NCBI GenBank assembly: GCA_016183365.1
Contig: JACPES010000003.1
Span: 345,154-409,153 of the forward strand
DNA: 64,000 nucleotides
Reading direction: 5' to 3'
Source: Candidatus Collierbacteria bacterium
GTDB taxonomy: Bacteria; Patescibacteriota; Microgenomatia; UBA1400; JACPES01
Under the pieces are notes generated by a model. That model was given only the letters and a program-made list of their open reading frames with translations. It was not told where the DNA came from and ran no database searches. The translations under genes were made by a program, and so were the position numbers. Below are positions 1,351 to 21,342 of the stretch, piece by piece; positions within the stretch are counted from its first letter, which is position 1; each line of letters opens with the position of its first letter.

Positions 1351-3123
1351 AAAAAGCCTATCTTCATATCAATTCTGATAATTTTGATCTTTAGTTTATT
1401 TGGTGCAAAAGCCTTATTTCATTCCGGCTTTTATACCAGTCATGACGGAGAACATCAGTTGGTCAGGCAATATGCGTTTGAGCAAGGGCTAAAAGACCGG
1501 CAAATTCCGGTTAGGTTTAGCCGCCAGCTGTACAACGGATACGGCTATCCATTATTTTTCTTTACTTATCGTTTGCCCTTTTACGCCGGAGAAGTATTTC
1601 GGCTGGCAGGGTTATCTTTTCAGGATAGCATCAAAACGGTATTCTTTGTGGCTTACATATTTTCCGGTCTGGCAATGTTTTGGTTTGCGCGGCGATGGGG
1701 AAATTTGGCCGGCCTGACTGCGGCAATTTTGTATATGTGGGTACCATATAGATTTTCAGTGATGTTTGTTAGGGCGGCTCTGGGAGAACATGCAGCGGCG
1801 ATATTTGTACCGTTATTGTTTGGGAGTATATCTAGCGGCAGGAAAATTAAGATTAATGTTTTAGCTGGGACAGTGGCGATTGTCGGTTTGTTTTTATCTC
1901 ACGCCATGATGGCGCAAATAGTTTTGTTAGCGTTTATTCCCTGGATAGTGACACATTTCTTTATAAATCGATGGAAAATGTCATTGCGAGCGACCAAAGG
2001 AAGCGCGGCAATCTCGTCTTTAGATTCAGATTGCCACGTCGCCAGAGCTCCTCGCAATGACGAAAGTGAGTATGCAAATAATTCGATAATTTTTATCTTA
2101 AAAACAATCTTCATGTTTATTTTAGGGGTGGGACTGGCGGCGTATTATTTGATTCCGGCGGCGGCCTATCGAGGGTTAACCCAGAAACTTAATCCTAATT
2201 ATTTTGCCGACCATTTTGTAACTTTAAAGCAGCTTATTTATTCTCCATGGGGATACGCGTTTTCCATGAAAGGAGTGGAGAGTGACGGAATGTCATTTCA
2301 GGTAGGGATGGCGCAATGGATTGTTGTCGGGCTGGTAATTATATTGGTTGCTATTTTTCTTCTAAAAAGGAGTCTCCTTTTTGCAAGGGAAAGATATATA
2401 TTGATAGAGTCAATATCGCTTTTGGTAATTTTTTTTCTTTCCATTTTCTTAATGACCGAAAAGTCGACTCAGATTTGGAACTGGTGGAAAAATTATATAA
2501 ATATTGATATGCCGTGGAGATTTTTGTTGATAACTACTTTTTCTGCCAGCGCTCTGGCCGGGATAGTTATAAAAGGCCTGGCCTTGTCCTGCAAGGCCAG
2601 GCCTTTATTGGCTATAATTTTAGTAGGTTTAGCCATCTATACCAATCGGAATCACCTACGGGTTAACGAATATCTTAATTATCCAGATAGCAAATTGGTG
2701 GAATATCGGGGGACAAGCAATAGCGACAACGAGTACCGGCCAAAGTGGGATGACGGAGGAATTGCTAATACGTTTAAGCCGGAGGCGTTGATCTCTAAAG
2801 GTAGTGGCGAATTGACGGTTATTAGGAGTAAATCTAATTTATTGGAATTGGCAGTCAGGGCGGACGAGGATATCAGGGTTGATATTAATACTCTTTATTT
2901 CCCGGGTTGGAAAGTTTTTGTAGATGGCAGAGAGATTAACTTTAAATACGCCGGAGAAAAAGGAATAATAAGAATTGATTTAGGAAATGGGTATCATATG
3001 GTGGAAGCTAAATTTAGTGAACCAACTGCTGCCATGATCGGAGATTTGGTTAGCATTGGAAGTTTGATAGCTTTGATAAGTGTTATTAAAACATTAAAAC
3101 ACGAGAGCACTAAAACAATTTGA
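1348..3123 (+). CDS. Large polytopic membrane protein, YfhO/PTPS-related-like putative GT-C glycosyltransferase (alternative in-frame start at 1288)
   Basis: N-terminal signal-anchor MKKPIFISILIILIF; HDGEHQLVRQ motif in first loop; >10 predicted TM segments; C-terminal soluble domain; carries in-frame palindromic insertions (1980-2061, 2572-2606). Confidence 0.4.
   Translation: MKKPIFISILIILIFSLFGAKALFHSGFYTSHDGEHQLVRQYAFEQGLKDRQIPVRFSRQLYNGYGYPLFFFTYRLPFYAGEVFRLAGLSFQDSIKTVFFVAYIFSGLAMFWFARRWGNLAGLTAAILYMWVPYRFSVMFVRAALGEHAAAIFVPLLFGSISSGRKIKINVLAGTVAIVGLFLSHAMMAQIVLLAFIPWIVTHFFINRWKMSLRATKGSAAISSLDSDCHVARAPRNDESEYANNSIIFILKTIFMFILGVGLAAYYLIPAAAYRGLTQKLNPNYFADHFVTLKQLIYSPWGYAFSMKGVESDGMSFQVGMAQWIVVGLVIILVAIFLLKRSLLFARERYILIESISLLVIFFLSIFLMTEKSTQIWNWWKNYINIDMPWRFLLITTFSASALAGIVIKGLALSCKARPLLAIILVGLAIYTNRNHLRVNEYLNYPDSKLVEYRGTSNSDNEYRPKWDDGGIANTFKPEALISKGSGELTVIRSKSNLLELAVRADEDIRVDINTLYFPGWKVFVDGREINFKYAGEKGIIRIDLGNGYHMVEAKFSEPTAAMIGDLVSIGSLIALISVIKTLKHESTKTI
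1980..2061. repeat. MITE-like palindromic element type 1 (gtcattgcgag ... ctcgcaatgac with inner ggcaatct/agattgcc stem), inserted in CDS
   Basis: Terminal 11-nt inverted repeats plus nested inner inverted repeat; encodes ...SLDSDCHVARAPRNDE within membrane-protein ORF. Confidence 0.7.
2572..2606. repeat. 35-nt palindrome aaaggcctggccttg-tcctg-caaggccaggccttt inside CDS (family shared with 20741 and 20855)
   Basis: 15-nt perfectly complementary arms; encodes KGLALSCKARPL. Confidence 0.85.
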
Positions 3124-3127
3124 TTTA

Positions 3128-3916
3128 ATGCTTGAATGTTTTCATGATTTTATGAATAAACCTAAAGTCATCATCGTCATGCCGGCTTATAATGCCGCCA
3201 AAACTATCGCTAAAACCATTGGCGATATACCAAAAGGATTGGTAAGCGAAATAATCGTGGTTGACGATCATTCAACGGATGATACTGTAAAAGTAGCCAG
3301 AAAACTTGGTTTAACGGTGTTTGAACATCCAAATAATCTTGGTTATGGCGGCAATCAAAAAACCTGTTATTGGGAGGCGTTAAAAAGAAATCCCGATGTG
3401 GTGGTTATGCTCCATCCGGACTATCAATATGATTCCAGCTTATTATCGGATTTAGTTACTCCGATTATAAATAACAAATACGATTTTATGTTTGGCAACA
3501 GAATTCATTCCCGTCAGGAGGCTTTTGATGGTGGTATGCCAAAAAGGAAATATTTCTTTAACAGGTTATTTACTATTTTGGCTAACACGGTTTTGGGCTT
3601 GAACCATCCGGAATACTTATCCGGTTTGCGGGCTTATTCCATAAAGTCTTTGAAACTGGTGCCGTTCCAGAGGTTTTCCAACGATTTTGCCTTTGACCAG
3701 CAATTTATGTTTTCAGCGGTCAGTTTCGGTTTGAGAATCGGCAGTATTCCGATTCCCACCCGTTATTATAATGATTCTTCTTCAATCCAATGGTGGCCCG
3801 GAGTCAAATTCGGTTTGGAGAGCCTGTGGGTGTTATTTAGATTGTTCCTGCATCAAAATGGTATATTTAAATCCGAATGGTTCCGTCATTCCGGCATCCG
3901 TCATTCCCCGACTTGA
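3128..3916 (+). CDS. Glycosyltransferase family 2 (polyprenol-phosphate sugar synthase-like)
   Basis: VIIVMPAYNAAKTI...IIVVDDHSTDDT GT2 signature; C-terminal 12 aa (WFRHSGIRHSPT) encoded by a palindromic repeat element. Confidence 0.7.
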   Translation: MLECFHDFMNKPKVIIVMPAYNAAKTIAKTIGDIPKGLVSEIIVVDDHSTDDTVKVARKLGLTVFEHPNNLGYGGNQKTCYWEALKRNPDVVVMLHPDYQYDSSLLSDLVTPIINNKYDFMFGNRIHSRQEAFDGGMPKRKYFFNRLFTILANTVLGLNHPEYLSGLRAYSIKSLKLVPFQRFSNDFAFDQQFMFSAVSFGLRIGSIPIPTRYYNDSSSIQWWPGVKFGLESLWVLFRLFLHQNGIFKSEWFRHSGIRHSPT

Positions 3917-3926
3917 ACGGGGAATC
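3872..3926. repeat. Palindromic element type 2 (cgtcattcc duplicated; hairpin attccccg-acttgaa-cggggaat) overlapping 3' end of GT2 gene
   Basis: gtcattccggcatccgtcattccccgacttgaacggggaatc. Confidence 0.65.
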
Positions 3927-4011
3927 TATAAAGATGATTTGTATGGGTTTCATCTCGAGGCAGGAATGACATTATTTATTTCTTTGGAAATTGCTACAAT
4001 ACAAACTATCT

Positions 4012-4692
4012 ATGGCTGAACCGATAGCTTTGGAAGGTAAGGTGACGGCTTCTATCCGCGAGTTGAGATTTTCTTTTGCCGGAGTGGTTGAGAGTATTTC
4101 CGTGGAAACCGGGAAAATCGTAGGCGCGGGGACGATAATGGCTCGGTTGAAAACAAGTGAATTGGGAAAGAAGCACCAGCTAAAGTTGGAAGCGTATAAT
4201 AAAATACGCGCTACCTTTGAGCAACTGAAGAAGAAGCTGGATGACAATGACGATCCCGATAAAAAATATCTGATGGATCGGGCCCAAGCCGACCTTAACT
4301 CCAGCGTTTTAGAAGTGGAACTTTCCCAATTGGAGCTTGACTCGGCGGAATTGAAGTGTCCTTTTAACGGCTTGGTGATTGATGATGGCGGAATAGCGGC
4401 GAGGATGGCAATTTCTCCGGCATCTTTTCCAATTAAAGTTATCGATTTTTCAACTTTAAAAGTGATGGCAGAGATTGATCAGGACAAAATGCCCTTGATC
4501 AAAACCGAAAATTATATAGAATTCAAGCCGATTGCGATTCCTGGTAAAGTTTATAAAGGCAGAGTTTTAGGCTTTACTCCGACTTCGGTAGAAGGTAAAT
4601 CCGACAAGTTCGGGCTGTGGTGCATCTTAGAAAAAACCGAGAGTCTTCTGTCGGGAATGAAGGGAAGCTTAAAAGTTTTCCAGGACAGATGA
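4012..4692 (+). CDS. HlyD/membrane-fusion-protein-like domain protein (orphan periplasmic-adaptor-like, no N-terminal TM)
   Basis: Pattern typical of RND/ABC adaptor lipoyl + beta-barrel domains (LKCPFNGLVID ... IDFSTLKVMAEIDQDKMPLIK...AIPGKVYKGRVLGFTP); no transporter partner nearby. Confidence 0.35.
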   Translation: MAEPIALEGKVTASIRELRFSFAGVVESISVETGKIVGAGTIMARLKTSELGKKHQLKLEAYNKIRATFEQLKKKLDDNDDPDKKYLMDRAQADLNSSVLEVELSQLELDSAELKCPFNGLVIDDGGIAARMAISPASFPIKVIDFSTLKVMAEIDQDKMPLIKTENYIEFKPIAIPGKVYKGRVLGFTPTSVEGKSDKFGLWCILEKTESLLSGMKGSLKVFQDR

Positions 4693-5729
4693 AAATAGTA
4701 ATTAATACTTCATTTTTAAATTCGGAGCATAAAACCCGCGGCATCGGCAGATATACCAAGAAATTGGTTGAAAGTCTTAGGGCTCTGGGATCAGATCATA
4801 AGATACTTTTAACCAGTAAGGTTGAGCTGGTTAAAAGTCCGGATGTGATTCATTATCCGAATTTTGATTTGTTCCGCAAGTCGTTGCCCATATTCCCTTT
4901 GGCGCCGGTTGAGATAATTACTATTCATGATTTGACACCATTAAGGATGAAAGATTTTTTCAAACCGGGGTTAAGAAGCGGCTTAGCCCTGTGGATCCAA
5001 TCAATTTTGGTCAAAAGAATGAAAGCGGTCATCACCGATTCAGAACATTCAAAATCCGACATAATTGAATTTTTGTCAATCCCTCCGGAAAAAATTAATG
5101 TTATTCCTTTGGGCGTGGATAAAGATTTTAATCCGGTAACTATTCAGAAAATAAAATCCGTCCAAAAAATATATTCCTTGCCGGAAAAATATTTATTGTA
5201 TGTCGGAGACGTCAATCCCAATAAAAATTTACCGGTTTTGTTAAGAGTGGTGGCCAAGTTAAAAATTCATTTGGTGATTGTTAGCCGGGCATTTGAGAAA
5301 AATTCGCTCCCGGAAATTATCAGTTTGCGTCAAATGATTTTAGACCTCGGAATAAGTCATTTGGTTAAAGTTCTGCCATCGGTCCAAATGGATCCAGCTG
5401 ACGACTTGGCCGCGATTTATTCCGGGGCTCTTGTTTATGTTCAACCCAGTCTTTACGAAGGGTTTGGTTTGCCGGTTTTGGAGGCTATGGCTTGCGGAGT
5501 GTCGGTGGTTTCATCCAATACCTCGTCTTTGCCGGAAGTTACGGGTGACGCCGCTTGGTTGGTTAAACCGACGGAGATTAATTTGGCGGAAGGAATTAAA
5601 AAATTATTGTCGGACAGTGATTTAAGGCGGAAGCTGATTCAAAAGGGTTTGGCCAGAGTGAAAAAGTTTGATTGGGGAAAAACTGCCGCCCTAACTTTAA
5701 AAGTTTATGAAAAAGCTGTTCAGCTCTGA
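4689..5729 (+). CDS. Glycosyltransferase family 4 (GT-B, retaining)
   Basis: EGFGLPVLEAMACGVSVVSSNTSSLPEV C-terminal GT4 motif; ATGA overlap with upstream gene. Confidence 0.75.
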   Translation: MKIVINTSFLNSEHKTRGIGRYTKKLVESLRALGSDHKILLTSKVELVKSPDVIHYPNFDLFRKSLPIFPLAPVEIITIHDLTPLRMKDFFKPGLRSGLALWIQSILVKRMKAVITDSEHSKSDIIEFLSIPPEKINVIPLGVDKDFNPVTIQKIKSVQKIYSLPEKYLLYVGDVNPNKNLPVLLRVVAKLKIHLVIVSRAFEKNSLPEIISLRQMILDLGISHLVKVLPSVQMDPADDLAAIYSGALVYVQPSLYEGFGLPVLEAMACGVSVVSSNTSSLPEVTGDAAWLVKPTEINLAEGIKKLLSDSDLRRKLIQKGLARVKKFDWGKTAALTLKVYEKAVQL

Positions 5730-6882
5730 AATATTGAAAGTTTTAAGAATCACTTTTTGGTGGAGAATCGGCCTGTTTTTATTAGGGTTGATTTCCACCA
5801 GCCTGATAGGATTTTTGTTTCCATATCCTAACTTTCAAAAATTAATCGAATTGGGAAACGGGATTCCCTCGATTTGGGCCTGGGGCGGATTTGACGGAAT
5901 CCATTATTTGACTATTGCCGAATCAGGATACGTGGCAGATTTTACCCAAGCCTTTTTTCCGCTTTTTCCGTGGATAATCGGATTAGTCGGAAAATATCTA
6001 TCATTGAATTCACTTTATAGCGCCTTGTTGGTGGGAAATTTGTCTCTATTGATCGCAGTCTGTTTGTTTTGGCGCTTATTGCGGATTGATTTTAAAAGCG
6101 ATCAGTCAAGGCAAATAATCTTAAGTTTATTGCTTTTCCCGACCGCGTTTTTTTTGGGAGCGATTTACGGAGAAGCGTTTTTCTTGTGTTTAGTGTTTGG
6201 CAGTTTCTTGGCGGCCAGAAGAAAAAAATGGTTGTTAGCCGGAGTTTTGGGAGCAATGGCCGCTGCTACCCGTTTGGTGGGAATATTCCTACTGCTGGCT
6301 TTGGCGGTTGAATATTGGTTGCAGTTAAAAGAGTCTAGGCTTTTTGTCAAACCCAGCAAGTCTTCCATGATCGTTCCGCTTCTGTCTATTTGTATGGTTT
6401 CTCTAGGGCTGATCGCCTACATGGTTTATTTAAATCAACATTTTAACGACCCGTTAAAATTTATCCATTCTCAACCAGCTTTCGGGGCCAGCCGGTCTGA
6501 TAAAATTGTCCTTCTTTATCAGGTGTTTTGGCGTTACTTGAAGATGTCCGTTACGGTTAGTTTTTTTTCCGTGCTTTATTACCGAGTGATGTTGGAATTG
6601 TTTTCCGCCGCCACATTTTTGATCTTGGGCTTGATAGGCTTGAAAAAAACCCGTTTGTCATATTCTGTTTTTGGGCTCTTATCTTTCCTGGCTCCGACTT
6701 TAACCGGAACTTTCTCCAGTATGCCCAGATATATTTTGGTGATGTTTTCGGTATTTATCATAATCGGAAGTTGGCTCAATGGTGAGAAACGCCAAGGGTT
6801 GAGGTGGATTTATTATTCTATAAGTTCAGTATTACTGATCGTCAGCACAGTGTTGTTTTTGTCGGGAAGATTTTTGGCTTGA
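5707..6882 (+). CDS. PIG-V-like mannosyltransferase family polytopic membrane protein (GT-C)
   Basis: First-loop motif GFDGIHYLTIAESGY resembling WD..HFL.IAEHGY of PIG-V/GPI-MT-II; ~10 TM helices; paralog at 22535. Confidence 0.5.
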   Translation: MKKLFSSEILKVLRITFWWRIGLFLLGLISTSLIGFLFPYPNFQKLIELGNGIPSIWAWGGFDGIHYLTIAESGYVADFTQAFFPLFPWIIGLVGKYLSLNSLYSALLVGNLSLLIAVCLFWRLLRIDFKSDQSRQIILSLLLFPTAFFLGAIYGEAFFLCLVFGSFLAARRKKWLLAGVLGAMAAATRLVGIFLLLALAVEYWLQLKESRLFVKPSKSSMIVPLLSICMVSLGLIAYMVYLNQHFNDPLKFIHSQPAFGASRSDKIVLLYQVFWRYLKMSVTVSFFSVLYYRVMLELFSAATFLILGLIGLKKTRLSYSVFGLLSFLAPTLTGTFSSMPRYILVMFSVFIIIGSWLNGEKRQGLRWIYYSISSVLLIVSTVLFLSGRFLA

Positions 6883-6898
6883 GTCTATAATATTCTTT

Positions 6899-7831: not shown

Positions 7832-7832
7832 T

Positions 7833-7856
7833 GTAAAATGATTTAAATCATTTTAC
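7833..7856. repeat. 24-nt perfect palindrome gtaaaatgatttaaatcattttac two nt after stop codon of epimerase gene
   Basis: Direct reading; AT-rich 12-bp stem, no U-tract. Confidence 0.8.
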
Positions 7857-7868
7857 AAAACAATAATA

Positions 7869-8609: not shown

Positions 8610-8614
8610 TAGTT

Positions 8615-10026: not shown

Positions 10027-10966
10027 CGTTTCACCGGATAAATTTAAGGGAGGCGGGCAGGCGCATCTCGTCGCTCTAGAGCGCGAGATGCGAATTAAGA
10101 ATTCAGAATTCATAATTCAGAATTTTAGTGGTTCAAGTCCAAATGTTTTCCTGCGTTTAGCGTGGATGCTTTGCGTAATCCCCCAAGTAATTTTTCACCA
10201 TTTCTTCAAACAAAAATTTGATTTAATTCACGCTCATTCAATTCCGGTTATGGTGTCGGGGAAAATACTGTCGTTGATATTAGGAATCCCGGTAGTAGTG
10301 ACTGTGCATGGTTATAACGAAAGTCGTTGGATGGAGAAATTAGTTTTAACTAAAATAAAATATGATGCTCAAATCACGGTAGCGAGGAATTTTTTGTCAG
10401 TTCCCAATGCCAATAAAAATGTGATTTATATTCCAAATGGGGTTGACGTATCGCGTTTTCAATGCGATAAATTCAGAATTCAGAATTCAGAATTCAGAAT
10501 TGTTTTGTTCGTCGGTCGTAAAAATGATCAGGCTAAAGGGTTTGTAATTTTGGAGAAAGCTTTAGAATTAGTTAAAAAGGAGATTCCTCAAATAAAACTA
10601 CTGGTTGCCGGCGGTGATTTATCACAGGAGGACGTATTACAGATGTATCAAAAAACCGATCTTTTTGTTTTGCCTTCCCTATCAGAGGGTTTCCCTTTAA
10701 CTTTGCTCGAATCCTGGGCGGCGAAACTCCCGGTAGTGGCTACCAGAGTCGGAGAATTGCCGTATCTAATTAGGGACGGAATCAATGGTTATCTGGTTGA
10801 GCCGGGATCGACACAAAAATTGGCTTTGGCCATCGTCAGGGCTTTAAAAAACCGGAATCTTGCCAAACTGGGAGAAAATGGGTACAATGTGGCGAAGCAT
10901 TACAAATGGAGCAAAGTCGCCGGATCAACTTTGAAAGTTTATGAATCAGTTGTATTGTCAGAGTAA
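10004..10966 (+). CDS. Glycosyltransferase family 4
   Basis: IVLFVGRKND...EGFPLTLLESWAAKLPVVATRVGELP; two gaattca heptamer tracts in-frame. Confidence 0.7.
   Translation: MNICFLIDVSPDKFKGGGQAHLVALEREMRIKNSEFIIQNFSGSSPNVFLRLAWMLCVIPQVIFHHFFKQKFDLIHAHSIPVMVSGKILSLILGIPVVVTVHGYNESRWMEKLVLTKIKYDAQITVARNFLSVPNANKNVIYIPNGVDVSRFQCDKFRIQNSEFRIVLFVGRKNDQAKGFVILEKALELVKKEIPQIKLLVAGGDLSQEDVLQMYQKTDLFVLPSLSEGFPLTLLESWAAKLPVVATRVGELPYLIRDGINGYLVEPGSTQKLALAIVRALKNRNLAKLGENGYNVAKHYKWSKVAGSTLKVYESVVLSE
10092..10126. repeat. Heptanucleotide tandem repeat gaattca x~5 (imperfect) in GT4 CDS
   Basis: gaattaa gaattca gaattca taattca gaatttt. Confidence 0.8.
10469..10503. repeat. Heptanucleotide tandem repeat gaattca x3 perfect plus flanking imperfect units, same GT4 CDS
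   Basis: aaattca gaattca gaattca gaattca gaattgt. Confidence 0.85.
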
Positions 10967-15367: not shown

Positions 15368-16092
15368 TTCATATAGTTTTGCCCGCCTTTAACGAAGCCG
15401 AATCTTTAAAAGTATTATTACCGGAACTGATAAGGACTTTGAAGGCTGAACGCTTACAGTATAAAATCTATGTTATAGATGACGGAAGTCTGGACGGAAC
15501 TTCTAAAATTGTTAAAGATTTTTCCCGCCGTTTCCCACAGATTAAATTGATAGCTCATAAAATCAACAAGGGTTTGGCCGAAACTATTAATACCGGTTTT
15601 AAAGAAGCTTTAAGAAAAAGCAAAAATGGGGATATATTGATTACCATGGATGCTGATAATACCCATTTACCAGGTTTAATAGTCAGGATGGCGAGGTTGA
15701 TAAATGAGGGAAATGACATTGTGATATCTTCACGATTCGTTTCAGGTTCTCGGGTGAGAGGCGTTCCGATCAGCCGCCGTTTATTGAGCTTGGCGGCCGG
15801 AATGATTTTCAAAATTCTTTTTCCCATATCCGGAGTTAAAGATTATACCTGCGGATTCCGGGCTTACCGGGTTGATCTTATTAAAAAAGGGATGGGAATT
15901 TATAAAGATAAATTTATCAGTGAAAAAGGATTTTCCTGTATGGTGGATATATTGTTAAAATTAAGGCGCTTGGATCCGATTTGCGCCGAAGTTCCGATGA
16001 TTTTAAGATATGACCTTAAAAAAGGTAAAAGCAAAATGGATGTTGGCAAGACAATAACGGAGACATTAAAACTTATACTCAAGCGATTATGA
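15364..16092 (+). CDS. Glycosyltransferase family 2 (Dpm1-like)
   Basis: MIHIVLPAFNEAESL...YVIDDGSLDGT...TMDADNTH; ORF-track start 15328 overlaps upstream gene, ATG at 15364 preferred. Confidence 0.7.
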   Translation: MIHIVLPAFNEAESLKVLLPELIRTLKAERLQYKIYVIDDGSLDGTSKIVKDFSRRFPQIKLIAHKINKGLAETINTGFKEALRKSKNGDILITMDADNTHLPGLIVRMARLINEGNDIVISSRFVSGSRVRGVPISRRLLSLAAGMIFKILFPISGVKDYTCGFRAYRVDLIKKGMGIYKDKFISEKGFSCMVDILLKLRRLDPICAEVPMILRYDLKKGKSKMDVGKTITETLKLILKRL

Positions 16093-17471
16093 AGTCTTTT
16101 TATATTTGGTTTTTATTAATAGCAGGGTTTTTATTTTCAAGGTTTTACAACTTGGGTAATTTGCCCTTATTTTCAGACGAAGGGTACGCGGTGGCAAGGG
16201 CTTGGGAATTAAAAAATACCGGAGAGTTACTGGGAATGGTGAAATATACCACCCAGCCGGTTTTTATTTGGATAGTGGCTTTATTTCAACTGTTGCCTTT
16301 CAGCGCGGTAATTGATGGCAGATTGGTGTCGGGTATTGCCGGATTGGGAACGGCTTTAATATTGGCGAAACTGGCGGAAAAATGGATTGATTCTAACGCT
16401 GAAATACCGGCATTTATTCTAATGACAATTTTGCCGTTTTCGGTTTTTTACGACCGGACGATTTTATTTGAATCAGCCACTTTATTTTTTATGGTTTTAG
16501 GGTTGGTTTTTCCGGCGGCTACAGGATTGGCGGTTTTAATCAAGCAAACAGGATGGTTGATATTACCGGCAGTTTTAACGCTTGGCAGAGGAAGCTTAAA
16601 GGGGAGAGCAATAAAAGTTTTAATCAGTATTTTGATGGTATTAGTTGTTTGGTATTTGGCAGTTGGAAGCTATAACTTAGTTACTGAGACAATATTTGGG
16701 AAAACAGCCGCTCCGATTTCGGTCCATGCCAATTTTAAAAATAATCTATTGCGCTCAATGCTTTGGCTGATTGATTATTTAACCTGGCCGGTGATTTGGT
16801 TGTCGGCTTTGGGGGGATTTGCGGCGGTTTTTGAGGCAATTAGACAAAAAAAGATTACTCCAATTTTGATAGTAGCCGGGTGGGCTTTGGGAATATTTTT
16901 ATTTATCAATAAAACCGCGGTAATTTTTTATCCCCGCTATCTCTATTCATCATTATTGGGGATTGTCCTATTGGCGGTAAATGGTTGGGAAAAAATACAA
17001 AACCGTGGATTCAATAAGATTGCCTTATCGGGATTGTCTGTTTTAATAATGCTTCCGGGTTTTATTTCAAGCTGGAAAATTATAGTAACTCCTGAAAAGG
17101 CAGATATACCCCGGGAGGACAGATTTCAATTTTTTGAAGACTGGACTAGCGGAGTGGGGAGCAAGGATCTTAGCGACGAAATTTTAAAAAAAGCAGAAAT
17201 TAATAAAGTTAATGTTTATCTGGAGGAGGAAAATTCATATTTTATTACCTTAAAAAATGATCCAAGATTAAAGAAAGTTAACGTAAAAACAGCGCAATGG
17301 TTGGTTGATCCGTTAACAGAAATTCCGAGAGAAGTATTGGCAGATGGTAAAACAGCAATGTTTGTCCGCAACCGCCACCCGGATATTCCGGCCGATTGGC
17401 CGGTGGAATTGGTCTGGTCGTTTCCTAAAACTAACAAGAGATCGGTATATTTATATAAAATTATCAGATGA
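16089..17471 (+). CDS. GT-C family (ArnT/PMT/GT39-like) polytopic membrane glycosyltransferase
   Basis: FSDEGYAVARAWEL acidic first-loop motif; ~12 TM; C-terminal soluble domain. Confidence 0.5.
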   Translation: MKSFYIWFLLIAGFLFSRFYNLGNLPLFSDEGYAVARAWELKNTGELLGMVKYTTQPVFIWIVALFQLLPFSAVIDGRLVSGIAGLGTALILAKLAEKWIDSNAEIPAFILMTILPFSVFYDRTILFESATLFFMVLGLVFPAATGLAVLIKQTGWLILPAVLTLGRGSLKGRAIKVLISILMVLVVWYLAVGSYNLVTETIFGKTAAPISVHANFKNNLLRSMLWLIDYLTWPVIWLSALGGFAAVFEAIRQKKITPILIVAGWALGIFLFINKTAVIFYPRYLYSSLLGIVLLAVNGWEKIQNRGFNKIALSGLSVLIMLPGFISSWKIIVTPEKADIPREDRFQFFEDWTSGVGSKDLSDEILKKAEINKVNVYLEEENSYFITLKNDPRLKKVNVKTAQWLVDPLTEIPREVLADGKTAMFVRNRHPDIPADWPVELVWSFPKTNKRSVYLYKIIR

Positions 17472-19375
17472 TAAAAATTGAAAGGCTTTCTATCCCGGTG
17501 GACTTTAATTTATCTTTTCTGAAAATCCGTTGGTCTGATCATATTTTGATGTACCCTGATTTTTCTCTCGAAAAATCAGTTGGTACACCAAAACCCTGCA
17601 TCGACGCTCTTGCGACGCATGGACGCAGCCCATGGGAGCAAGTAAGTTTAATGCGGGGTTGTCCTATCGGTGAAGGAGTAGTCTATGGCGGCGACTGGGC
17701 GAAAGCGGAACGACTAGCGAGGCAGATGGCGGAAATGAAGTTTGGAGCCGACCGCGACGGGTTACAGGTATGTGAGCAGGTGTTTATTGAACCAGCCCCA
17801 GCAGTACGCTTGCCACTCCCGTGGTCTACGTCCACGCGTCGTGGTGTCGCGACTGCGGGGTTCGGATGTGACCGCGATTTTTTCCTTCAGGAAAAAATCG
17901 GTCCCATCCGAAAAAGAAAATCTAATTTGAAATTGAAAGTCGGAAGAAATGTTTTTGATGATATTAAAGTTATAGAGTTTATTCGCCGTGAACTGAAATT
18001 CCCGAATGAGATTAGGATTGATGCTAATCAAGGGTATTCTCTCAAGCAACTGCAATATATTGTTCCGACGTTAAAAGAAGCAGGAATTGAATATGTGGAA
18101 GAGCCGGTCAAGATTAAAGATCTGCCAGCCGCCGTCAAATTACTTCATCAAAACGGACTCAAAATTATTCTTGACGAAACCCTCTTGTTTAAAAAGTCAT
18201 CACGAGACTCCGCTAAGCGGGGTCGTGGCGATCTAATTGTAAAGACAGATTGCCACGTCACTACGTTCCTCGCAATGACAGAACTTAAGATCGATGTCAT
18301 AAATATCAAACTCTCCCGTATCGGCGATATAAATAAAGCGATTCAGTTAATCGCATTGGCAAAAAAACACAATATAAAAATAGTGATTGGTTGCAGCGAA
18401 GAACTTGAAAGAGGGATGAAGGCTATTTACGCGTTGGGACACGAAGCCAGAAAATCCGGAGTGTTGTTGGAGGTTGAAGGTTTTGGGCCTTTAAGGCTTA
18501 AACAAAAATATACTTCAGTGCCGCGGTGGTTCAACCGGATGGAAAATTTATCGATAATCATCGGTCACAAAATCCGGCAGCTGATATTTGAAATATATTG
18601 GCTGGTTTTAAAAGTTGGAGTTTTAATAATGAAAAAATCTAAATTAGTTTCCCCCCTCTCGCTTCATTTGGTTAAATGGACCGGCAAATCCAGACAAAAA
18701 ATTCATCCTAAACATTTGATTTTTCAAAAATATCCGCCTGAATTTTTAAAATGCTTAAATCCAAATGATTTTGTCTTGGATGTTGGCTGTGGCAACGGTC
18801 AGAATAGTCTGCTGGCAGCCGGAAAGGCAAAAAGGGTGGTTGGTTTCGACATTGATAAAACACAATTGAAAATTGCCAAAGCTGAAGCGGTCAGGCGGGG
18901 ATTAAATAATGTTGAATTCGATTATGCTTCGGCTGAAGATAAATTCCCTTATAAATCACGTTCATTCGATAAGATTATTTTTTTGGGAGTCTTGGAGCAT
19001 TTGACTAACAGGGAAAATATTTTAGAGGAAATTCGCAGGGTGATGAATTCCGGCGGACAATTATTGTTGGGGGTTCCGAATGAGGGAACAAGTTGGAAAA
19101 AACTGCAAATGAATGTCGGGGTCCAGCATTTTACCGATCCGGATCACAAACTGGAGTTTACCCTCCGGACAATCAGCGATTTATTGGTTAAAACGGGATT
19201 TAAGCCGGTTTCAATTCAGCCGACGGCCTTTGATACTCCATGGGCGGGCTTGATTGACGTTGTTGGTGGGATTTCTCTGAACATCTATCAGAAACTTTTA
19301 TTTTGGAAGTGGGCTAAGGCTAAGCAAAATCCGGAAGAATCTATTAGTTTTTTTATTGTCGCAAATAAAATCTAA
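17468..19375 (+). CDS. Enolase-superfamily (MR/MLE-type barrel: KxK, DAN, EEP, DET, K motifs) protein running in-frame into a class I SAM methyltransferase domain; possibly two genes (second start ~18628) or a fusion; N-terminal 140 codons atypical/GC-rich
   Basis: LKLKVG...IRIDANQGYS...VEEPVKI...ILDETL...INIKLSRIGDI barrel motifs; C-terminal VLDVGCGNGQ...FDKIIFLGVLEHL MTase motifs; no stop between. Confidence 0.45.
   Translation: MIKIERLSIPVDFNLSFLKIRWSDHILMYPDFSLEKSVGTPKPCIDALATHGRSPWEQVSLMRGCPIGEGVVYGGDWAKAERLARQMAEMKFGADRDGLQVCEQVFIEPAPAVRLPLPWSTSTRRGVATAGFGCDRDFFLQEKIGPIRKRKSNLKLKVGRNVFDDIKVIEFIRRELKFPNEIRIDANQGYSLKQLQYIVPTLKEAGIEYVEEPVKIKDLPAAVKLLHQNGLKIILDETLLFKKSSRDSAKRGRGDLIVKTDCHVTTFLAMTELKIDVINIKLSRIGDINKAIQLIALAKKHNIKIVIGCSEELERGMKAIYALGHEARKSGVLLEVEGFGPLRLKQKYTSVPRWFNRMENLSIIIGHKIRQLIFEIYWLVLKVGVLIMKKSKLVSPLSLHLVKWTGKSRQKIHPKHLIFQKYPPEFLKCLNPNDFVLDVGCGNGQNSLLAAGKAKRVVGFDIDKTQLKIAKAEAVRRGLNNVEFDYASAEDKFPYKSRSFDKIIFLGVLEHLTNRENILEEIRRVMNSGGQLLLGVPNEGTSWKKLQMNVGVQHFTDPDHKLEFTLRTISDLLVKTGFKPVSIQPTAFDTPWAGLIDVVGGISLNIYQKLLFWKWAKAKQNPEESISFFIVANKI
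17548..17589. repeat. Long hairpin gatgtaccctgatttttc-tctc-gaaaaatcag(tt)ggtacacc at 5' side of GC-rich segment
   Basis: ~16 bp stem with 2-nt bulge. Confidence 0.7.
18196..18279. repeat. Degenerate copy of MITE-like element type 1 inside enolase-superfamily barrel domain
   Basis: gtcatcacgag...agattgccacgtc...cctcgcaatgac; encodes SRDSAKRGRGDLIVKTDCHVTTFLAMT. Confidence 0.6.
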
Positions 19376-19388
19376 AATATAAAAACGT

Positions 19389-19436
19389 CAATTATTTTCA
19401 GGCAAAGCCTGATCCTGCTCTGCGGGAAAATAATTG
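19389..19436. repeat. Intergenic stem-loop: 11-nt inverted repeat caattattttc/gaaaataattg enclosing caggcaaagcctg hairpin
   Basis: Direct reading; downstream of 17468..19375 ORF, upstream of 19447 gene. Confidence 0.6.
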
Positions 19437-19446
19437 AAGTAAATTT

Positions 19447-21342
19447 ATGAAATCAGTAAATCCGACCGTATCAGTATTATTTCCTATAGGGAAAGATAAA
19501 CGTTTCTTAGAGGAAGCATTGGAGAGTATCAGAAATCAGTCTTTTAAGGATTATGAATTATTATCCCAAGAAGATGACGGAAGAGGAATTACTCAAGTCT
19601 TAATTGATTTAGCCAAAAAGGCAAAAGGTGAATTCTTAGTCCGGATGGATGTTGACGATATTTGTTTGCCAAACAGATTTAAGGTTCAAGTGGATTATCT
19701 CCGGGCCAATCCGGATGTTCAATTAGCCGGATCATGGGCAATCTTAATTGACGAAAAAGGAAATCAGATAGGTTTGCAGAAAATGCCAATTTATTGGGAA
19801 GAGATAAAAAGGGAAGCATTCTTCAGAAACCCTTTAATTCATCCGTCATGGATGACGCGCAGGAATTGGTTTGAAAAGATTGGCGGATACAATTCTGTTT
19901 TTGCAACTGCTCAGGATTGGGAGTTGATCTTAAGAAGAGTTTGGCGGGAAAGAATTGAAAATATTCCGGAGCCTTTACTCAAATTAAGAATACATTCAGG
20001 GTCGGTTTCGTTTTCCAAAAATAGATTACAAGTTTACTATGGCCTGAAAGCCAGATTATCGGCGATTCTTAGGGGTGATGTCCGATGGTATAAGGGGATT
20101 TATTTAATGCCATCGTTATTAGCTTTGATGATTCCTACAAAATTAAAATTGTTAGCAAGGCTCAATTTAAATAGATTCCTGGTCAAGCTGTTCGACCATC
20201 CTGAGCTCACCGCCGAAGGGCCAGGAATGACAATAAAGCCGGTCTTGGGAATAGTAATGCCGATCGGGCAAAACAAAGAACAATTATTGAAATCAGGACA
20301 ATGGGGTCTTTGGCAATCTGAAATTGAAGAATACCGGAAATATTTTGGCGGAGTGGAAATATTTGAATTTAAGCATAGGAATTGGTTCAGGTTTCCGGAA
20401 GCAATTCTGCTGCCATTGGTTCAGTCGGACAGATTCAAGCGATGTTCGGTTTTTAAAGCCGTCCACCTGTCGGCAGTAGTTCCTTGTTTGATGGTAAAAG
20501 CGTTATATAGGATTCCGTACGTTTTGAGTTTTGGTTATCGATATGACGAATTTGCCAAGATTGAGAAGAAATGGGTACAGTGGATTTTTATAAAACTATT
20601 AGAACCCTTAGCAATTAGGTATGCAGATTTAGTTTTGGTTCCGACAGAGGGGCTTAGAGCATATGTTAATGATATCGGTGCGAAAAATATTGAAGTGATT
20701 CCAAATGGAGTTGACGTTAATCTGTTCAAACAGGCCTCAAAAGGTCTCACCTTGCGTCCGCAAGGTGAGACCTTATTAAATATTCTTTTCGTCGGGAGAT
20801 TGGAAAGACAAAAAAACTTAGAGAGTTTGATCAAGGCAGTTTATAAACTATTAAAAGGTCCGACCTTGCCTCGGCAAGGTCGGACCTTAATAAATAAGCT
20901 GGTGTTTGTTGGAGCCGGAAGTTTGAGGGGTGAGTTGACTAAGTTGGCAAATACACTCGGGATTAATTTAGAGATTATCGGACCGGTTCCCAATGAAAAA
21001 TTACCGGGAATTTATCGCCAGGCTGATATTTTTGTTTTGCCGTCTTTAGCCGAAGGCCACCCTAAAGCCTTATTGGAGGCGATGAGCTGCGGTTTGGCGT
21101 GTATAGCAAGTGATATTACCGGCGTGAATGAGATAATTGTTGACGGCAAAAACGGGTTGTTGGTTCAGGCTACAGTTAATGGTTTGGTCAAGGGGCTGAA
21201 GCGACTAGTCGGCGATTCTAAACTCCGGAAACTTTTGGGAACCAACGCCAGAAAGACGGTGCTAGATAGATTTGATAAGAGAAAGCTAATGGAAAAAGAG
21301 TGTAAGTTACTGACGCGATCCCAATATCCGAATTCATCCTAA
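19447..21342 (+). CDS. Bifunctional glycosyltransferase: N-terminal GT2 domain + C-terminal GT4 domain
   Basis: SVLFPIGKDKRFLEEALESIRNQSF...RMDVDDICLPNRF (GT2) then ILFVGRLERQKN...EGHPKALLEAMSCGLACIASDITG (GT4); two in-frame 34-nt palindromes. Confidence 0.65.
   Translation: MKSVNPTVSVLFPIGKDKRFLEEALESIRNQSFKDYELLSQEDDGRGITQVLIDLAKKAKGEFLVRMDVDDICLPNRFKVQVDYLRANPDVQLAGSWAILIDEKGNQIGLQKMPIYWEEIKREAFFRNPLIHPSWMTRRNWFEKIGGYNSVFATAQDWELILRRVWRERIENIPEPLLKLRIHSGSVSFSKNRLQVYYGLKARLSAILRGDVRWYKGIYLMPSLLALMIPTKLKLLARLNLNRFLVKLFDHPELTAEGPGMTIKPVLGIVMPIGQNKEQLLKSGQWGLWQSEIEEYRKYFGGVEIFEFKHRNWFRFPEAILLPLVQSDRFKRCSVFKAVHLSAVVPCLMVKALYRIPYVLSFGYRYDEFAKIEKKWVQWIFIKLLEPLAIRYADLVLVPTEGLRAYVNDIGAKNIEVIPNGVDVNLFKQASKGLTLRPQGETLLNILFVGRLERQKNLESLIKAVYKLLKGPTLPRQGRTLINKLVFVGAGSLRGELTKLANTLGINLEIIGPVPNEKLPGIYRQADIFVLPSLAEGHPKALLEAMSCGLACIASDITGVNEIIVDGKNGLLVQATVNGLVKGLKRLVGDSKLRKLLGTNARKTVLDRFDKRKLMEKECKLLTRSQYPNSS
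20741..20774. repeat. 34-nt perfect palindrome aaggtctcaccttgcg-tc-cgcaaggtgagacctt inside GT2-GT4 CDS
   Basis: Encodes KGLTLRPQGETL in-frame. Confidence 0.9.
20855..20888. repeat. 34-nt perfect palindrome aaggtccgaccttgcc-tc-ggcaaggtcggacctt inside same CDS, 114 nt downstream
   Basis: Encodes KGPTLPRQGRTL in-frame; differs from 20741 copy only by paired compensatory changes. Confidence 0.9.

What the first reader, a model, noticed from the sequence alone, without database searches (positions are those of the whole stretch)
2572..20888. In-frame 34-35 nt perfect palindromes with compensatory covariation inside coding sequences
Three copies of a palindromic mini-element (2572-2606, 20741-20774, 20855-20888) share the frame aaGG-N-ccttg-N-caagg-N-CCtt and encode related peptides (KGLALSCKARPL, KGLTLRPQGETL, KGPTLPRQGRTL). 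The copies differ by paired, complementary substitutions on both arms (tc..ga versus cg..cg, and gcg..cgc versus gcc..ggc). Each copy therefore stays a perfect hairpin. This means the nucleic-acid secondary structure is being maintained, not the peptide. Two copies sit 114 nt apart in the GT2-GT4 fusion gene and one sits in the YfhO-like membrane protein gene. This looks like a small mobile or gene-converting palindrome family, in the style of HIP1 or REP elements. It could alternatively be an RNA structural element such as an RNase or translation-pause site. It tolerates, and may prefer, insertion into ORFs in-frame.
Basis: seen in the sequence. Interest (0 to 1): 0.7.

Follow-up and report, generated by a model that had tools for sequence, protein, structure and literature searches.

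The report
REP-like palindromes translated inside CPR genes
The in-frame 34-nt palindromes are real. They are inverted pairs of a 13-nt hairpin unit (AAGG-N5-CCTT) that, in other candidate-phyla-radiation (CPR) bacteria, flanks a REP-type tyrosine transposase gene, so they look like tiny REP/REPIN mobile elements living inside protein loops rather than a new kind of RNA signal.

Summary
Positions 2572-2606, 20741-20774 and 20855-20888 are perfect palindromes, in frame, and their arms differ by paired complementary changes.

The window (Candidatus Collierbacteria) also holds a degenerate copy (244-277), a solo unit (2367-2379) and a decayed copy (27678-27712). Seven syntenic loci from related MAGs bring the count to 47 copies in about 132 kb. 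These use all three reading phases, sit at gene ends and short spacers as well as inside genes, and often occupy the same loop positions in orthologous genes.

Each palindrome is an inverted doublet of the unit AAGG-N5-CCTT. This unit is tied to a CPR family of roughly 205-255 aa Y1/HUH (IS200/RAYT-like) transposase genes:
- It flanks the gene in loci fetched by the palindrome pattern alone.
- It lies within 200 nt of 38 of 80 loci fetched by the protein alone, a 40-fold local enrichment.
- It lies on both sides of two further protein-chosen genes.

Best explanation: REPIN-like elements tolerated as 10-13 aa insertions in surface loops.

Evidence for DNA-level rather than mRNA-level maintenance:
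- many copies are palindromic through the centre;
- G-U intermediates are almost absent;
- spacers are found inverted.

No transposase gene was found in this window or the related loci, and the rest of the genome could not be scanned.

Verdict: a new variant of a known kind, of moderate interest.

The parts
2572..2606 (+). Perfect palindromic doublet with units AAGGCCTGGCCTT (2573-2585) and AAGGCCAGGCCTT (2593-2605). It is in frame in ORF 1288..3123 and encodes KGLALSCKARPL.
   Evidence: Folds as ssDNA at -19.5 kcal/mol, z -7.4. Present only in the closer Collierbacteria orthologues and absent in distant ones.
20741..20774 (+). Perfect palindromic doublet (core TCTCA/TGAGA, centre CGTCCG). It is in frame in the GT2-GT4 gene and encodes (K)GLTLRPQGETL, after NGVDVNLFK.
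   Evidence: The orthologous site in L001 carries the same stem with the centre inverted (CGGACG); L003, L004 and L006 carry other cores; L005 and L007 carry tandem repeats instead. The AF2 model shows a coil with pLDDT below 50 at residues 433-440.
20855..20888 (+). Perfect palindromic doublet (core TCCGA/TCGGA, centre CCTCGG). It is in frame in the GT2-GT4 gene and encodes (K)GPTLPRQGRTL, before the VFVGAG strand.
   Evidence: It is 91-97% identical to the copies at the same site in L002 and L003, while 4-fold sites of the gene are 34-43% identical. The AF2 model shows a coil with pLDDT below 50 at residues 475-479.
244..277 (+). Degenerate doublet AAGGTGTAACCTTGCAGAAGCAAAGTTACACCTT with one C.A mismatch. 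It is read in a different phase (LRCNLAEAKLHL) in the partial ORF 17..1291.
   Evidence: Folds as ssDNA at -12.8 kcal/mol, z -6.9.
2367..2379 (+). Solo unit AAGGAGTCTCCTT followed by a decayed partner (to about 2392), in ORF 1288..3123. It reads as a REP-singlet-like remnant.
   Evidence: (I8). Orthologues P0112 and P0115 have a full doublet-type peptide (KRPGLAKQGQAL / KRPGLVKQGRAL) at this position.
27678..27712 (+). Decayed doublet AAGGCCCAGTCCCGACTAGGTCAAGGCCAGGCCTT in a methyltransferase ORF. Only the right unit (27700-27712) is intact.
   Evidence: The orthologous site in L001 (18188) and L004 (18174) holds full doublets, and L002 holds a single unit.
19447..21342 (+). Host gene: a GT2-GT4 fusion glycosyltransferase that carries two doublets in loops of the GT4 domain.
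   Evidence: Pfam; orthologue alignment A1; AF2 model m750b69690c6a.
1288..3123 (+). Host gene: a polytopic membrane protein, YfhO-like only by distant homologues. It carries one doublet, one solo unit and a member of a second palindrome family.

Best explanation
The palindromes are REPIN-like elements.

Structure. Each is an inverted doublet of a 13-nt REP-like hairpin unit, AAGG-N5-CCTT. The AAGG/CCTT stem is invariant. The 5-nt loop is lineage-specific and its ends usually pair. The two units are separated by a 5-11 nt spacer that starts with G and ends with C.

Link to a transposase. In many CPR (Patescibacteria) genomes the same unit flanks, on both sides, a single roughly 205-255 aa Y1/HUH transposase gene of the IS200/RAYT superfamily.

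Proposed mechanism.
- That enzyme, or a relative encoded elsewhere in this genome, recognises the unit as a single-stranded DNA hairpin. It copies doublets to new sites without a target duplication, as proposed for REPIN-RAYT systems.
- These genomes have almost no intergenic space, so surviving copies are those that keep the reading frame and land in permissive places: surface loops, inter-domain linkers, protein termini and short gene spacers. There they are translated as 10-13 aa insertions.
- The arms match because they are inverted copies of one unit. They stay matched through DNA-level processes: replacement by new copies, and arm-to-arm template switching or conversion.
- One-armed remnants are decayed elements.

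Shown here:
- the anatomy of the element;
- its abundance;
- occupancy of orthologous sites, and presence/absence among orthologues;
- its location in loops;
- covariation between the arms;
- the statistical and physical association of the unit with the Y1 gene in other CPR genomes.

Inferred:
- that this enzyme moves the elements;
- that such a gene exists in this Collierbacteria genome;
- that the elements are neutral or selfish passengers rather than functional.
For: Real and non-random:
- 0 pattern matches in shuffles, and 10 units against 1.2 expected.
- 47 copies in about 132 kb of window plus seven syntenic loci.

Nucleotide-level conservation, not peptide-level:
- Three reading phases are used.
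- In alignment A2, 12 of 17 pairs change on both sides (53 cells), with only 2 one-sided cells; 0 of 500 shuffles reach the observed covariation score, cells paired or cells changed on both sides, and 1-2 reach the two counts of pairs and pair types.
- 35 of 47 copies are stop-free in all three frames, against 14.5% of genomic 34-mers and 32% of shuffled elements.

Permissive sites:
- Both GT4 inserts coincide with the only two low-confidence coils inside a GT4 domain (residues ~263-628) otherwise modelled at pLDDT mostly above 80-90.
- Orthologues at the same loops lack the insert, or hold other palindrome families or tandem repeats.

Doublet of a unit:
- Single units appear as hairpin tips next to the Y1 genes.
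- Solo arms occupy orthologous sites of full doublets.

Transposase link:
- Among CPR loci fetched by the palindrome pattern alone, 7 have a Y1 gene with the AAGG palindrome beside it (within about 60 nt of a gene end in six; about 130 nt upstream in L116, whose immediate flanks are another hairpin); L056 also carries a Y1 gene, but flanked by its own, different hairpin. In L053 identical doublets lie on both sides.
- Among 80 metagenome loci fetched by the protein alone, 38 have the exact unit within 200 nt and 28 have it on both sides. Density is 2.33 per kb near the gene against 0.057 per kb elsewhere; 110 units were observed against 2.8 expected.
- Two further protein-chosen loci (L207, L208) both have the unit on both sides. 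There the gene sits in the same RecA-FtsK...L10/L12 neighbourhood in two genomes.
- The proteins hit Pfam Y1_Tnp (6 of 6) and keep the HUH motif and the YI(H)xNP tyrosine.

No target duplication is seen, which fits Y1 transposition.

Published REPIN descriptions list the same features: inverted doublets forming hairpins, frequent compensatory changes, singlets as remnants, an alternative clover fold, and RAYT genes flanked by the repeats (PMC3116915). Intragenic REP dimers are reported in PMC3733652.
Against: - No Y1/RAYT gene was found in the 64-kb window or in the seven related Collierbacteria-type loci, about 165 kb in all, by tblastn or HMM. The rest of the 588-kb contig could not be read.
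- All transposase-linked examples come from other CPR lineages, mostly Parcubacteria/Paceibacterota.
- The units lack the unpaired GTAG/CGTC tag that defines the classical REP superfamilies.
- The protein scores only 37 bits on NCBIfam REP_Tyr_transpos, below the cut-off of 80. Its best solved relative is an IS200/IS605 TnpA, and only weakly.
- 42 of the 80 protein-selected loci show no exact unit nearby.
- The unit has only 8 fixed bases, so the Collierbacteria elements and the transposase-flanking units could share the motif without a shared mechanism.
- Many copies persist at orthologous sites across lineages whose 4-fold sites are near saturation. A purely mobile element does not predict that.
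Confidence: 0.65

Rival explanations
1. Resident, non-mobile palindromes. Each arose and persists at its own site, and its arms are kept identical only by intra-palindrome template switching or gene conversion during replication. No transposase is involved, and the AAGG/CCTT motif is a by-product of that process.
For: - Spacer inversions occur at orthologous sites: window 20741 has CGTCCG where L001 11259 has CGGACG, and L004 3618 has GCGGAGC where L007 2081 has TCTCCGA.
- 12 of 47 copies are perfect through the centre.
- Almost all changes are double Watson-Crick swaps.
- Copies are held at the same loop in lineages with near-saturated 4-fold sites.
- Template switching is documented to create perfect stems, make multi-base compensated changes and invert loops (PMC8794818, PMC8604942).
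- No transposase was found in this window.
Against: - It does not explain why unrelated genes and spacers, in many CPR lineages, share the same AAGG-N5-CCTT / CCTTG...CAAGG frame.
- It does not explain why three identical 34-mers sit in three genes of L001 where L004 has three different variants.
- It does not explain why the unit is enriched 40-fold next to a Y1 transposase gene.
- It most likely acts as a maintenance mechanism on top of dispersal, not as the origin.
Confidence: 0.15
2. Functional mRNA hairpins selected at the RNA level, for example translation pause sites that aid co-translational folding of the Rossmann domain, RNase targets or attenuators.
For: - They form very stable RNA hairpins, -28 to -31.5 kcal/mol with z from -6 to -11.
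- They recur just before the ILFVGR strand in three paralogous GT4 genes.
- They are conserved at orthologous positions.
Against: - Many copies pair through the centre, which an RNA hairpin cannot use.
- Only 2 of 323 cells in A2 are one-sided (G-U type) changes.
- In imperfect copies, C.A mismatches (12) are no rarer than G.T mismatches (8) on the mRNA strand.
- Other orthologues have no hairpin, or quite different repeats, at the same place.
- Copies also lie outside ORFs.
- There is no Rfam family match and no terminator-type T-run.
Confidence: 0.08
3. Binding sites for a dimeric host DNA-binding protein (nucleoid protein, regulator or restriction/modification enzyme) that recognises AAGG-N5-CCTT. 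Two sites lie two helical turns apart, and there is no connection with transposition.
For: - Each arm is itself a 13-bp near-palindrome with fixed 4-bp half-sites.
- The unit centres are about 21 bp apart in the 34-nt copies.
- N1 and N5 are complementary in 80 of 109 units.
Against: - Protein recognition of AAGG/CCTT would not require the two variable N5 cores to be exact reverse complements, yet they are (85 of 125 pattern-only matches).
- The spacing varies from 28 to 37 nt.
- The specific neighbourhood of the unit is a transposase gene.
Confidence: 0.05
4. A conserved peptide motif (KGxxLxxQGxxL) needed by the proteins, with the palindromy a by-product of codon choice.
For: Similar peptides occur at the same positions in many orthologues.
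Against: - The same DNA is read in three phases and gives unrelated peptides such as KGPTL..., KRPGL... and NKARP....
- It occurs in unrelated proteins and in spacers.
- It is absent in many orthologues.
- It lies in low-confidence coils.
- The DNA is a perfect palindrome in each case.
Confidence: 0.02

Closest known systems
REPIN-RAYT systems (REP doublets forming hairpins plus REP-associated tyrosine transposases; Pseudomonas, E. coli; PMC3116915, PMC5581495)
   Same: - Short hairpin units organised as inverted doublets with a variable spacer.
- Compensatory changes between the arms.
- Singlets as decayed remnants.
- An alternative clover fold, because each arm is itself a hairpin.
- A single Y1/HUH transposase gene flanked on both sides by the repeat and sitting in a conserved chromosomal neighbourhood.
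- Long vertical persistence.
- No target duplication.
   Different: - The unit is only 13-15 nt and the doublet 28-37 nt; for comparison, the two ends of a Pseudomonas GI REPIN lie 71 bp apart (PMC3116915).
- There is no unpaired GTAG/CGTC guide tag.
- Many doublets are perfect palindromes through the centre.
- Most copies are inside genes and translated.
- The enzyme is a roughly 205-255 aa CPR-specific clade below the NCBIfam RAYT threshold.
- An extra unit lies in frame inside the transposase gene itself.
- No such gene has yet been seen in this genome.
Intragenic REPs and REP dimers of Opitutus terrae and Rickettsia conorii (RPE-4/-6) (PMC3733652)
   Same: REP units and dimers are inserted in frame in known proteins. 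They encode short extra peptides, are sometimes inserted twice in one gene, and are judged neutral loop or terminus insertions.
   Different: Those belong to the GTAG- or CGTC-tagged superfamilies. In those genomes the intragenic copies are a minority, whereas here they are the majority and recur at orthologous sites.
Rickettsia palindromic elements, RPE (Ogata et al. 2000, 2002, as summarised in PMC10969869)
   Same: Selfish palindromic DNA is inserted in frame in many unrelated genes of a small-genome bacterium, at positions compatible with protein folding.
   Different: RPEs are about 100-150 bp, imperfect and defined by sequence families restricted to Rickettsia, with no linked transposase known. 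The elements here are 34 nt, mostly perfect, and linked to a Y1 gene in related phyla.
Template-switch maintenance of inverted repeats (PMC8794818, PMC8604942)
   Same: It explains perfect stems, multi-base compensated changes and spacer inversion without G-U intermediates, including inside coding sequence.
   Different: It is a mutational process, not an element family. It does not account for a shared motif at many loci or for the transposase association.
Coding palindromes in Nematomorpha mitochondrial genes (PMC6649704)
   Same: Perfect inverted repeats are embedded in translated genes.
   Different: There both arms encode conserved protein regions, reach up to 284 bp, and are not dispersed copies of one motif. 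Here the inserts are extra, variable loop residues.

Membership tests
REP / REPIN-RAYT | A short hairpin-forming repeat present in many copies per genome | tested here: met
   There are 10 units in the window against 1.2 expected, and 47 doublets or near-doublets in about 132 kb of related loci.
REP / REPIN-RAYT | Two units in inverted orientation with a spacer, folding into one long hairpin (a REPIN) | tested here: met
   The ssDNA folds are -12.8 to -19.5 kcal/mol with z from -7 to -10. Single units exist separately.
REP / REPIN-RAYT | A Y1 transposase gene flanked by the same repeat | tested here: met
   This is met in other CPR genomes: L053, L095, L093, L108, L015 and L021; 38 of 80 protein-selected loci, 28 of them on both sides; and L207 and L208.
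REP / REPIN-RAYT | A cognate RAYT gene present in the same genome as the repeats | not testable with these tools
   None was found in the window or in L001-L007 by tblastn or HMM.
REP / REPIN-RAYT | A conserved unpaired tetranucleotide guide (GTAG or CGTC) at the foot of the hairpin (PMC3733652, PMC6006769) | tested here: not met
   The flanks of 109 transposase-linked units and 47 Collierbacteria copies show no fixed tag. The bases next to AAGG/CCTT vary and usually extend the stem. GTAG-bearing hairpins flank other, different Y1 genes in L053 and L116.
REP / REPIN-RAYT | Extragenic location | tested here: not met
   Most Collierbacteria copies are inside ORFs. Of the CPR-wide perfect copies, 31 of 66 lie inside ORFs of at least 150 codons.
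REP / REPIN-RAYT | The enzyme carries the HUH motif and catalytic tyrosine and belongs to Y1_Tnp | tested here: met
   Pfam PF01797 is hit by 6 of 6 proteins. MPNH(F/I/Y)H and the invariant YI (mostly YIHLNP) are conserved in alignment A4.
REP / REPIN-RAYT | The enzyme passes the curated RAYT model (NCBIfam NF047646) | tested here: not met
   The score is 37.4 bits against a cut-off of 80, although it is the only NCBIfam hit. The best PDB relative is ISDra2 TnpA with E 0.003.
REP / REPIN-RAYT | The RAYT is a resident, vertically inherited gene rather than a jumping IS | tested here: inconclusive
   Two genomes (L207, L208) show the same RecA-FtsK...L10/L12 neighbourhood. Copy number per genome was not measured.
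Rickettsia palindromic elements (RPE) | Imperfect palindromes of 100-150 bp belonging to the Rickettsia RPE sequence families | tested here: not met
   The elements here are 28-37 nt and the host is a CPR bacterium. Only the in-frame habit is shared.
HIP1 (cyanobacterial GCGATCGC) | The octamer GCGATCGC as the repeated motif | tested here: not met
   None of the 47 copies contains it.
Intrinsic terminator | A GC-rich hairpin followed by a T-run at a gene end | tested here: not met
   The scan of 19000-22000 does not call the two palindromes in that region (20741, 20855). The tails of all three are TTA/TTT followed by mixed A/T, and most copies are internal to ORFs.
Known RNA families (Rfam 15) | A match at the gathering score | tested here: not met
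   There are 0 matches in the whole window.

The most novel reading that the evidence does not exclude
CPR bacteria carry a phylum-wide, vertically persistent REPIN-RAYT partnership whose elements have moved their niche from intergenic DNA into proteins. The unit has evolved to be stop-free in every frame. It accumulates at fixed permissive loops of cell-envelope glycosylation enzymes and is kept perfect by DNA-level copying. On this reading it is a standing generator of loop length and sequence variation, and possibly of recombination breakpoints, in surface-related proteins of ultra-small genomes. The in-frame unit inside the transposase gene would serve as a feedback sensor of its own activity.
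Probability: 0.2. Interest if true: 0.75.

Novelty: new variant of a known kind. Interest (0 to 1): 0.55.

Why it matters
REP/REPIN-RAYT systems have been described mainly in Proteobacteria and are taken to depend on intergenic space. The papers I could search do not mention them in CPR/Patescibacteria.

Here a miniature version, with a 13-nt unit and a 34-nt doublet, appears to thrive in genomes with almost no intergenic DNA by living inside proteins as translated loop insertions.

If confirmed, this would:
- extend the range and the minimal size of REPIN-like replicators;
- explain a class of odd recurrent peptides (KGPTLPRQGRTL-like, RPGLAAARPGL-like) and spurious low-complexity segments in CPR proteomes;
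- give annotators a way to mask them;
- provide natural markers of insertion-tolerant loops in glycosyltransferases;
- offer a tractable case for how perfect DNA palindromes are maintained within coding sequence.

Tried and rejected
- Target-site duplication: flanking 2-, 3- and 4-nt direct repeats occur in 12, 5 and 1 of 47 copies, with no consistent sequence. Rejected.
- Terminator or known RNA: there is no T-run call and no Rfam hit.
- RNA-level selection: tested through G-U usage and centre pairing. Disfavoured.
- Peptide-level conservation: rejected because three reading phases are used.
- Search for a Y1/RAYT gene in the window and in L001-L007, by tblastn and by an HMM built from 120 relatives: nothing at E up to 10.
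- Reaching the rest of this genome: P0001 and P0104 are not on record in the contig index, so I could not walk outside the window.
- Finding Collierbacteria-like neighbours among the 80 transposase loci by blastp against window proteins: no hits.
- CRISPR-like array: only two copies 114 nt apart, inside an ORF and without regular spacing. Dropped.
- Collinsella hits in the genome scan: these are one conserved locus (AAGGGGGCTCCTTG...) repeated across species, not the family.
- Literature searches for in-frame palindromes in CPR: nothing found.

Full report
**1. Observation**

- 2572-2606: 15-bp stem, 5-nt loop.
- 20741-20774: 16-bp arms around a 2-nt centre.
- 20855-20888: 16-bp arms around a 2-nt centre.

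A search for all perfect stems of at least 11 bp with short loops shows that these are the only ones of 14 bp or more in the 64 kb. The shared pattern AAGG-N5-CCTTG-N6-CAAGG-N5-CCTT has no match in 100 dinucleotide-preserving shuffles.

The frames and peptides are as reported. As single strands the copies fold at -17 to -19.5 kcal/mol as DNA and -28 to -31.5 kcal/mol as RNA, with z-scores from about -6 to -11.

- a one-mismatch copy at 244-277, read in another phase;
- a solo half at 2367-2379;
- a decayed copy at 27678-27712.

The 13-nt half AAGG-N5-CCTT occurs 10 times against 1.2 expected.

**2. Host and relatives**

The GT2-GT4 protein is identical to a Candidatus Collierbacteria protein on a 588-kb contig. 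Collierbacteria belong to the Microgenomates within the CPR.

I fetched the syntenic glycosylation cluster from seven related MAGs, L001-L007. A scan for AAGG...CCTT palindromes finds 47 copies in about 132 kb, up to 11 per 20 kb. Of these, 28 have flawless stems.

**3. What happens at orthologous sites**

They do carry similar residues at the same two positions of the GT4 domain. However, in every such case the DNA is again a palindrome with a different core:
- Site 1: TCTCA, TCCGA, CCCGG, TTACA.
- Site 2: TCCGA, TCCAA, CCAGG, CTCTG.

Other orthologues lack the element. At these positions they carry a one-armed remnant (KGCIST / KGRIPT at site 2 in L004 and L005) or simple tandem repeats; at other permissive loops of the cluster some orthologues carry a palindrome of another family.

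The same holds in the membrane-protein gene. The insert is present in the closer Collierbacteria orthologues and absent in distant ones.

Copies are read in all three phases and give unrelated peptides. They also lie just after stop codons and at protein termini.

In an AlphaFold model of the GT2-GT4 protein, the two inserts coincide with the only two low-confidence coils (residues 433-440 and 475-479) inside an otherwise confident GT4 domain. The elements are therefore extra residues in permissive loops, not conserved protein sequence.

**4. Nature of the symmetry**

On 19 copies of 34 nt (alignment A2):
- 12 of 17 stem pairs show changes on both sides, in 53 cells.
- Only 2 cells show a one-sided (G-U type) change.
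- None of 500 shuffles reaches the observed covariation score, cells paired or cells changed on both sides; 1-2 reach the two counts of pairs and pair types.

Twelve of 47 copies are palindromic right through the centre (CCGCGG, AGTACT, CGTACG, TCGCGA, CAGCTG). An RNA hairpin cannot use that pairing. In imperfect copies, C.A mismatches (12) are no rarer than G.T mismatches (8) on the mRNA strand.

Spacers are found inverted between orthologous copies:
- window 20741 has CGTCCG where L001 has CGGACG;
- L004 3618 has GCGGAGC where L007 2081 has TCTCCGA.

These features point to DNA-level copying rather than selection on an mRNA structure.

Four-fold degenerate sites of the host genes are 26-67% identical between loci. 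Elements at the same sites are 38-97% identical, with a mean of 72%. So some copies are held far better than neutral sequence.

Others have been replaced. L001 carries the identical variant AAGGCCCGGTCCGCCAGCTGGCGGACCGGGCCTT in three genes, plus a decayed fourth copy, where L004 has three different variants.

**5. The decisive lead**

Apart from one conserved Collinsella locus, more than half are CPR MAGs from many lineages.
- In 85 of 125 matches the two unconstrained N5 cores are exact reverse complements.
- About half of the CPR copies lie inside long ORFs.

While checking loci with two copies, I found that in L053 the two identical palindromes bracket a 241-aa ORF. That ORF hits Pfam Y1_Tnp (IS200-like) and, below threshold, NCBIfam REP-associated tyrosine transposase.

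A tblastn search of everything fetched by the palindrome pattern then found homologues of this protein in eight further loci, one of them only a partial match at a locus end (L052). In L095, L093, L108, L015 and L021 an AAGG palindrome or single unit lies within about 60 nt of a gene end; in L116 the palindrome is about 130 nt upstream, and in L056 it is about 1.9 kb away.

Around these genes the half-element also appears alone, as the tip of a hairpin: [variable 3-7 bp stem]-AAGG-N5-CCTT-[complementary stem]. The 34-nt palindrome of the window is therefore an inverted doublet of a 13-nt unit.

**6. Test of the association without selection on the palindrome**

The protein family is large, with 5,714 relatives at E of 1e-5 or better, named from Parcubacteria, Nomurabacteria, Yonathbacteria and Paceibacterota. 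I fetched 80 metagenome loci by protein similarity alone. The results:
- 38 loci have an exact AAGG-N5-CCTT within 200 nt of the gene, 28 of them on both sides.
- Density is 2.33 per kb near the gene against 0.057 per kb elsewhere in the same loci.
- 110 units were observed against 2.8 expected from shuffles.

The N5 loop is locus-specific and its end bases pair in 80 of 109 units. In 12 loci a further unit lies in frame inside the transposase gene, mostly about 150-170 nt from the start.

Two more protein-chosen loci with long contigs (L207, L208) both have the unit on both sides. They place the gene in the same RecA-FtsK...L10/L12 neighbourhood in two genomes. That looks like a resident RAYT-type gene rather than a jumping IS.

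All six aligned proteins hit Y1_Tnp and keep the HUH motif and the tyrosine.

**7. Model**

Shown here:
- The palindromes are a family.
- They are doublets of a unit.
- They sit in permissive, translated positions.
- Their arms covary by full Watson-Crick swaps.
- Solo arms occur where relatives have doublets.
- The unit is the specific neighbour of a Y1/HUH transposase gene in many CPR genomes.

Inferred:
- The Y1 enzyme recognises the unit as a single-stranded hairpin and spreads doublets without target duplication (none is seen), as proposed for REPINs and RAYTs (PMC3116915).
- In genomes with almost no spacer DNA, selection leaves only copies that keep the frame in tolerant loops.
- Perfection of the arms is kept by replacement with fresh copies and by arm-to-arm template switching. 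That process is documented to make multi-base compensated changes and invert loops (PMC8794818, PMC8604942).

One further observation fits life inside ORFs: 35 of 47 copies are stop-free in all three frames, against 14.5% of genomic 34-mers and 32% of shuffled elements.

**8. Rivals**

- Purely resident palindromes maintained by template switching would explain the perfection, the spacer inversions and the long residence. They would not explain the shared motif across unrelated sites and lineages, the identical copies in L001, or the transposase neighbourhood. I treat this as a contributing maintenance process.
- An mRNA function is disfavoured by the centre pairing, the lack of G-U pairs, the absence from many orthologues, the copies outside ORFs, and no Rfam or terminator signal.
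- A host DNA-binding site would not need the two cores to be exact complements.
- A peptide motif is excluded by the three reading phases.

**9. Comparison with known systems**

It works like a REPIN-RAYT system and resembles the intragenic REP dimers reported in Opitutus terrae and Rickettsia (PMC3733652) and, by habit, the RPEs (PMC10969869).

Membership is incomplete:
- The GTAG/CGTC tag is absent.
- The location is mainly intragenic.
- The enzyme is below the curated RAYT threshold and only weakly similar to a solved IS200/IS605 TnpA.
- No Y1 gene was found in the window or the seven related loci, and the rest of this genome could not be read.

HIP1 does not apply. I therefore file it as a new variant of a known kind and not as a confirmed REPIN-RAYT member.

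**10. Limits**

- The transposase-linked examples are from other CPR lineages.
- The unit has only eight fixed bases.
- The genome scan was truncated, so no per-taxon counts exist.
- Taxon labels of several MAGs ('uncultured Gammaproteobacteria', 'Saccharibacteria' from bulk binning) may be unreliable.
- No paper on such elements in CPR was found in the searchable library, which is not proof that none exists.

Noticed in passing
window 1980-2061, about 18190-18279, and 29757-29767: There is a second in-frame palindrome family of about 85 nt, GTCATTGCGAG...AGATTGCCACGTC...CTCGCAATGAC. It encodes SLRA...DCHVA..PRNDE-type peptides in the membrane-protein gene and in ORF 17468..19375. The motifs are far above chance.
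   Followed up: partly
L004 10719-10758, L001 about 10700; L002 3560-3640; L001 about 9000: The same permissive loops hold other palindrome families in other orthologues. Examples are TTCATTCCAGACTGCCGATCGGCAGTCTGGAATGAA in the GT2-GT4 linker, an approximately 80-nt AAAATCACGATTAACG... element at site 1 of L002, and VIPxxxxI-type elements. These loops are insertion hot spots for several element families.
   Followed up: partly
window 10092-10126, 10468-10503, 23899-23928; about 22150: There are in-frame tandem heptamer repeats (GAATTCA, TCAACGT, ATCCATC) at loop positions where relatives carry palindromes. L005 and L007 likewise have AAGTACAAGAA x3 and AAACAAA xN at GT4 site 1.
   Followed up: no
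L135 3167, L136 3167, L148 3161, L169 3167, L207 10161 and others: The RAYT-like genes themselves carry one AAGG-N5-CCTT unit in frame, mostly about 150-170 nt from the start (the QGxTL segment of the protein). L095 and L015 carry a whole doublet inside the gene.
   Followed up: partly
L053 4663-4727 and 5483-5503; L116 about 330-420 and 1060-1130; L056 4272-4294 and 5013-5035: Other, more distant Y1 genes in the same CPR genomes are flanked by different hairpins, some with a GTAG next to the stem (CTGTAGGAGTCTGACTCCTACAG; AGCAGGGAGACTCCCTGCAGTAG). This suggests several RAYT/REP pairs per genome.
   Followed up: no
L207 and L208, 1-20 kb: The RAYT-like gene lies in the same neighbourhood (RecA, Glucodextran_B-domain protein, FtsK ... 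ribosomal L10/L12) in two different Parcubacteria-type genomes.
   Followed up: partly
L001 5029, 12235, 12543 (and 11373): Three identical copies of an unusual variant, AAGGCCCGGTCCGCCAGCTGGCGGACCGGGCCTT, plus one decayed copy, occupy sites where L004 has three different ordinary variants. This looks like a within-genome sweep or conversion.
   Followed up: partly
window 1315-1350 and 3121-3150: Short AT-rich repeats (aatgctctaatg / aatgcttgaatg) overlap the 5' ends of consecutive ORFs and give MLQCSNALM-type N-termini. The true starts are probably downstream; NCBI calls the second ORF 20 residues shorter.
   Followed up: no
window 1-64000: GC skew is positive in every 4-kb window (0.02-0.19; 0.13-0.19 across the first 32 kb), and every ORF of at least 120 aa in the first 24 kb is on the + strand.
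   Followed up: no
L008, L010, L012 and about 27 more loci: A conserved palindrome, AAGGGGGCTCCTTG(CCAA/TTGG)CAAGGAGCCCCCTT, occurs at what appears to be a single locus in many Collinsella genomes. It matched the search pattern but is unrelated to the CPR family.
   Followed up: no
window 59083-59095: There is an isolated unit, AAGGCGGTGCCTT, with no partner. It may be chance or an old remnant.
   Followed up: no
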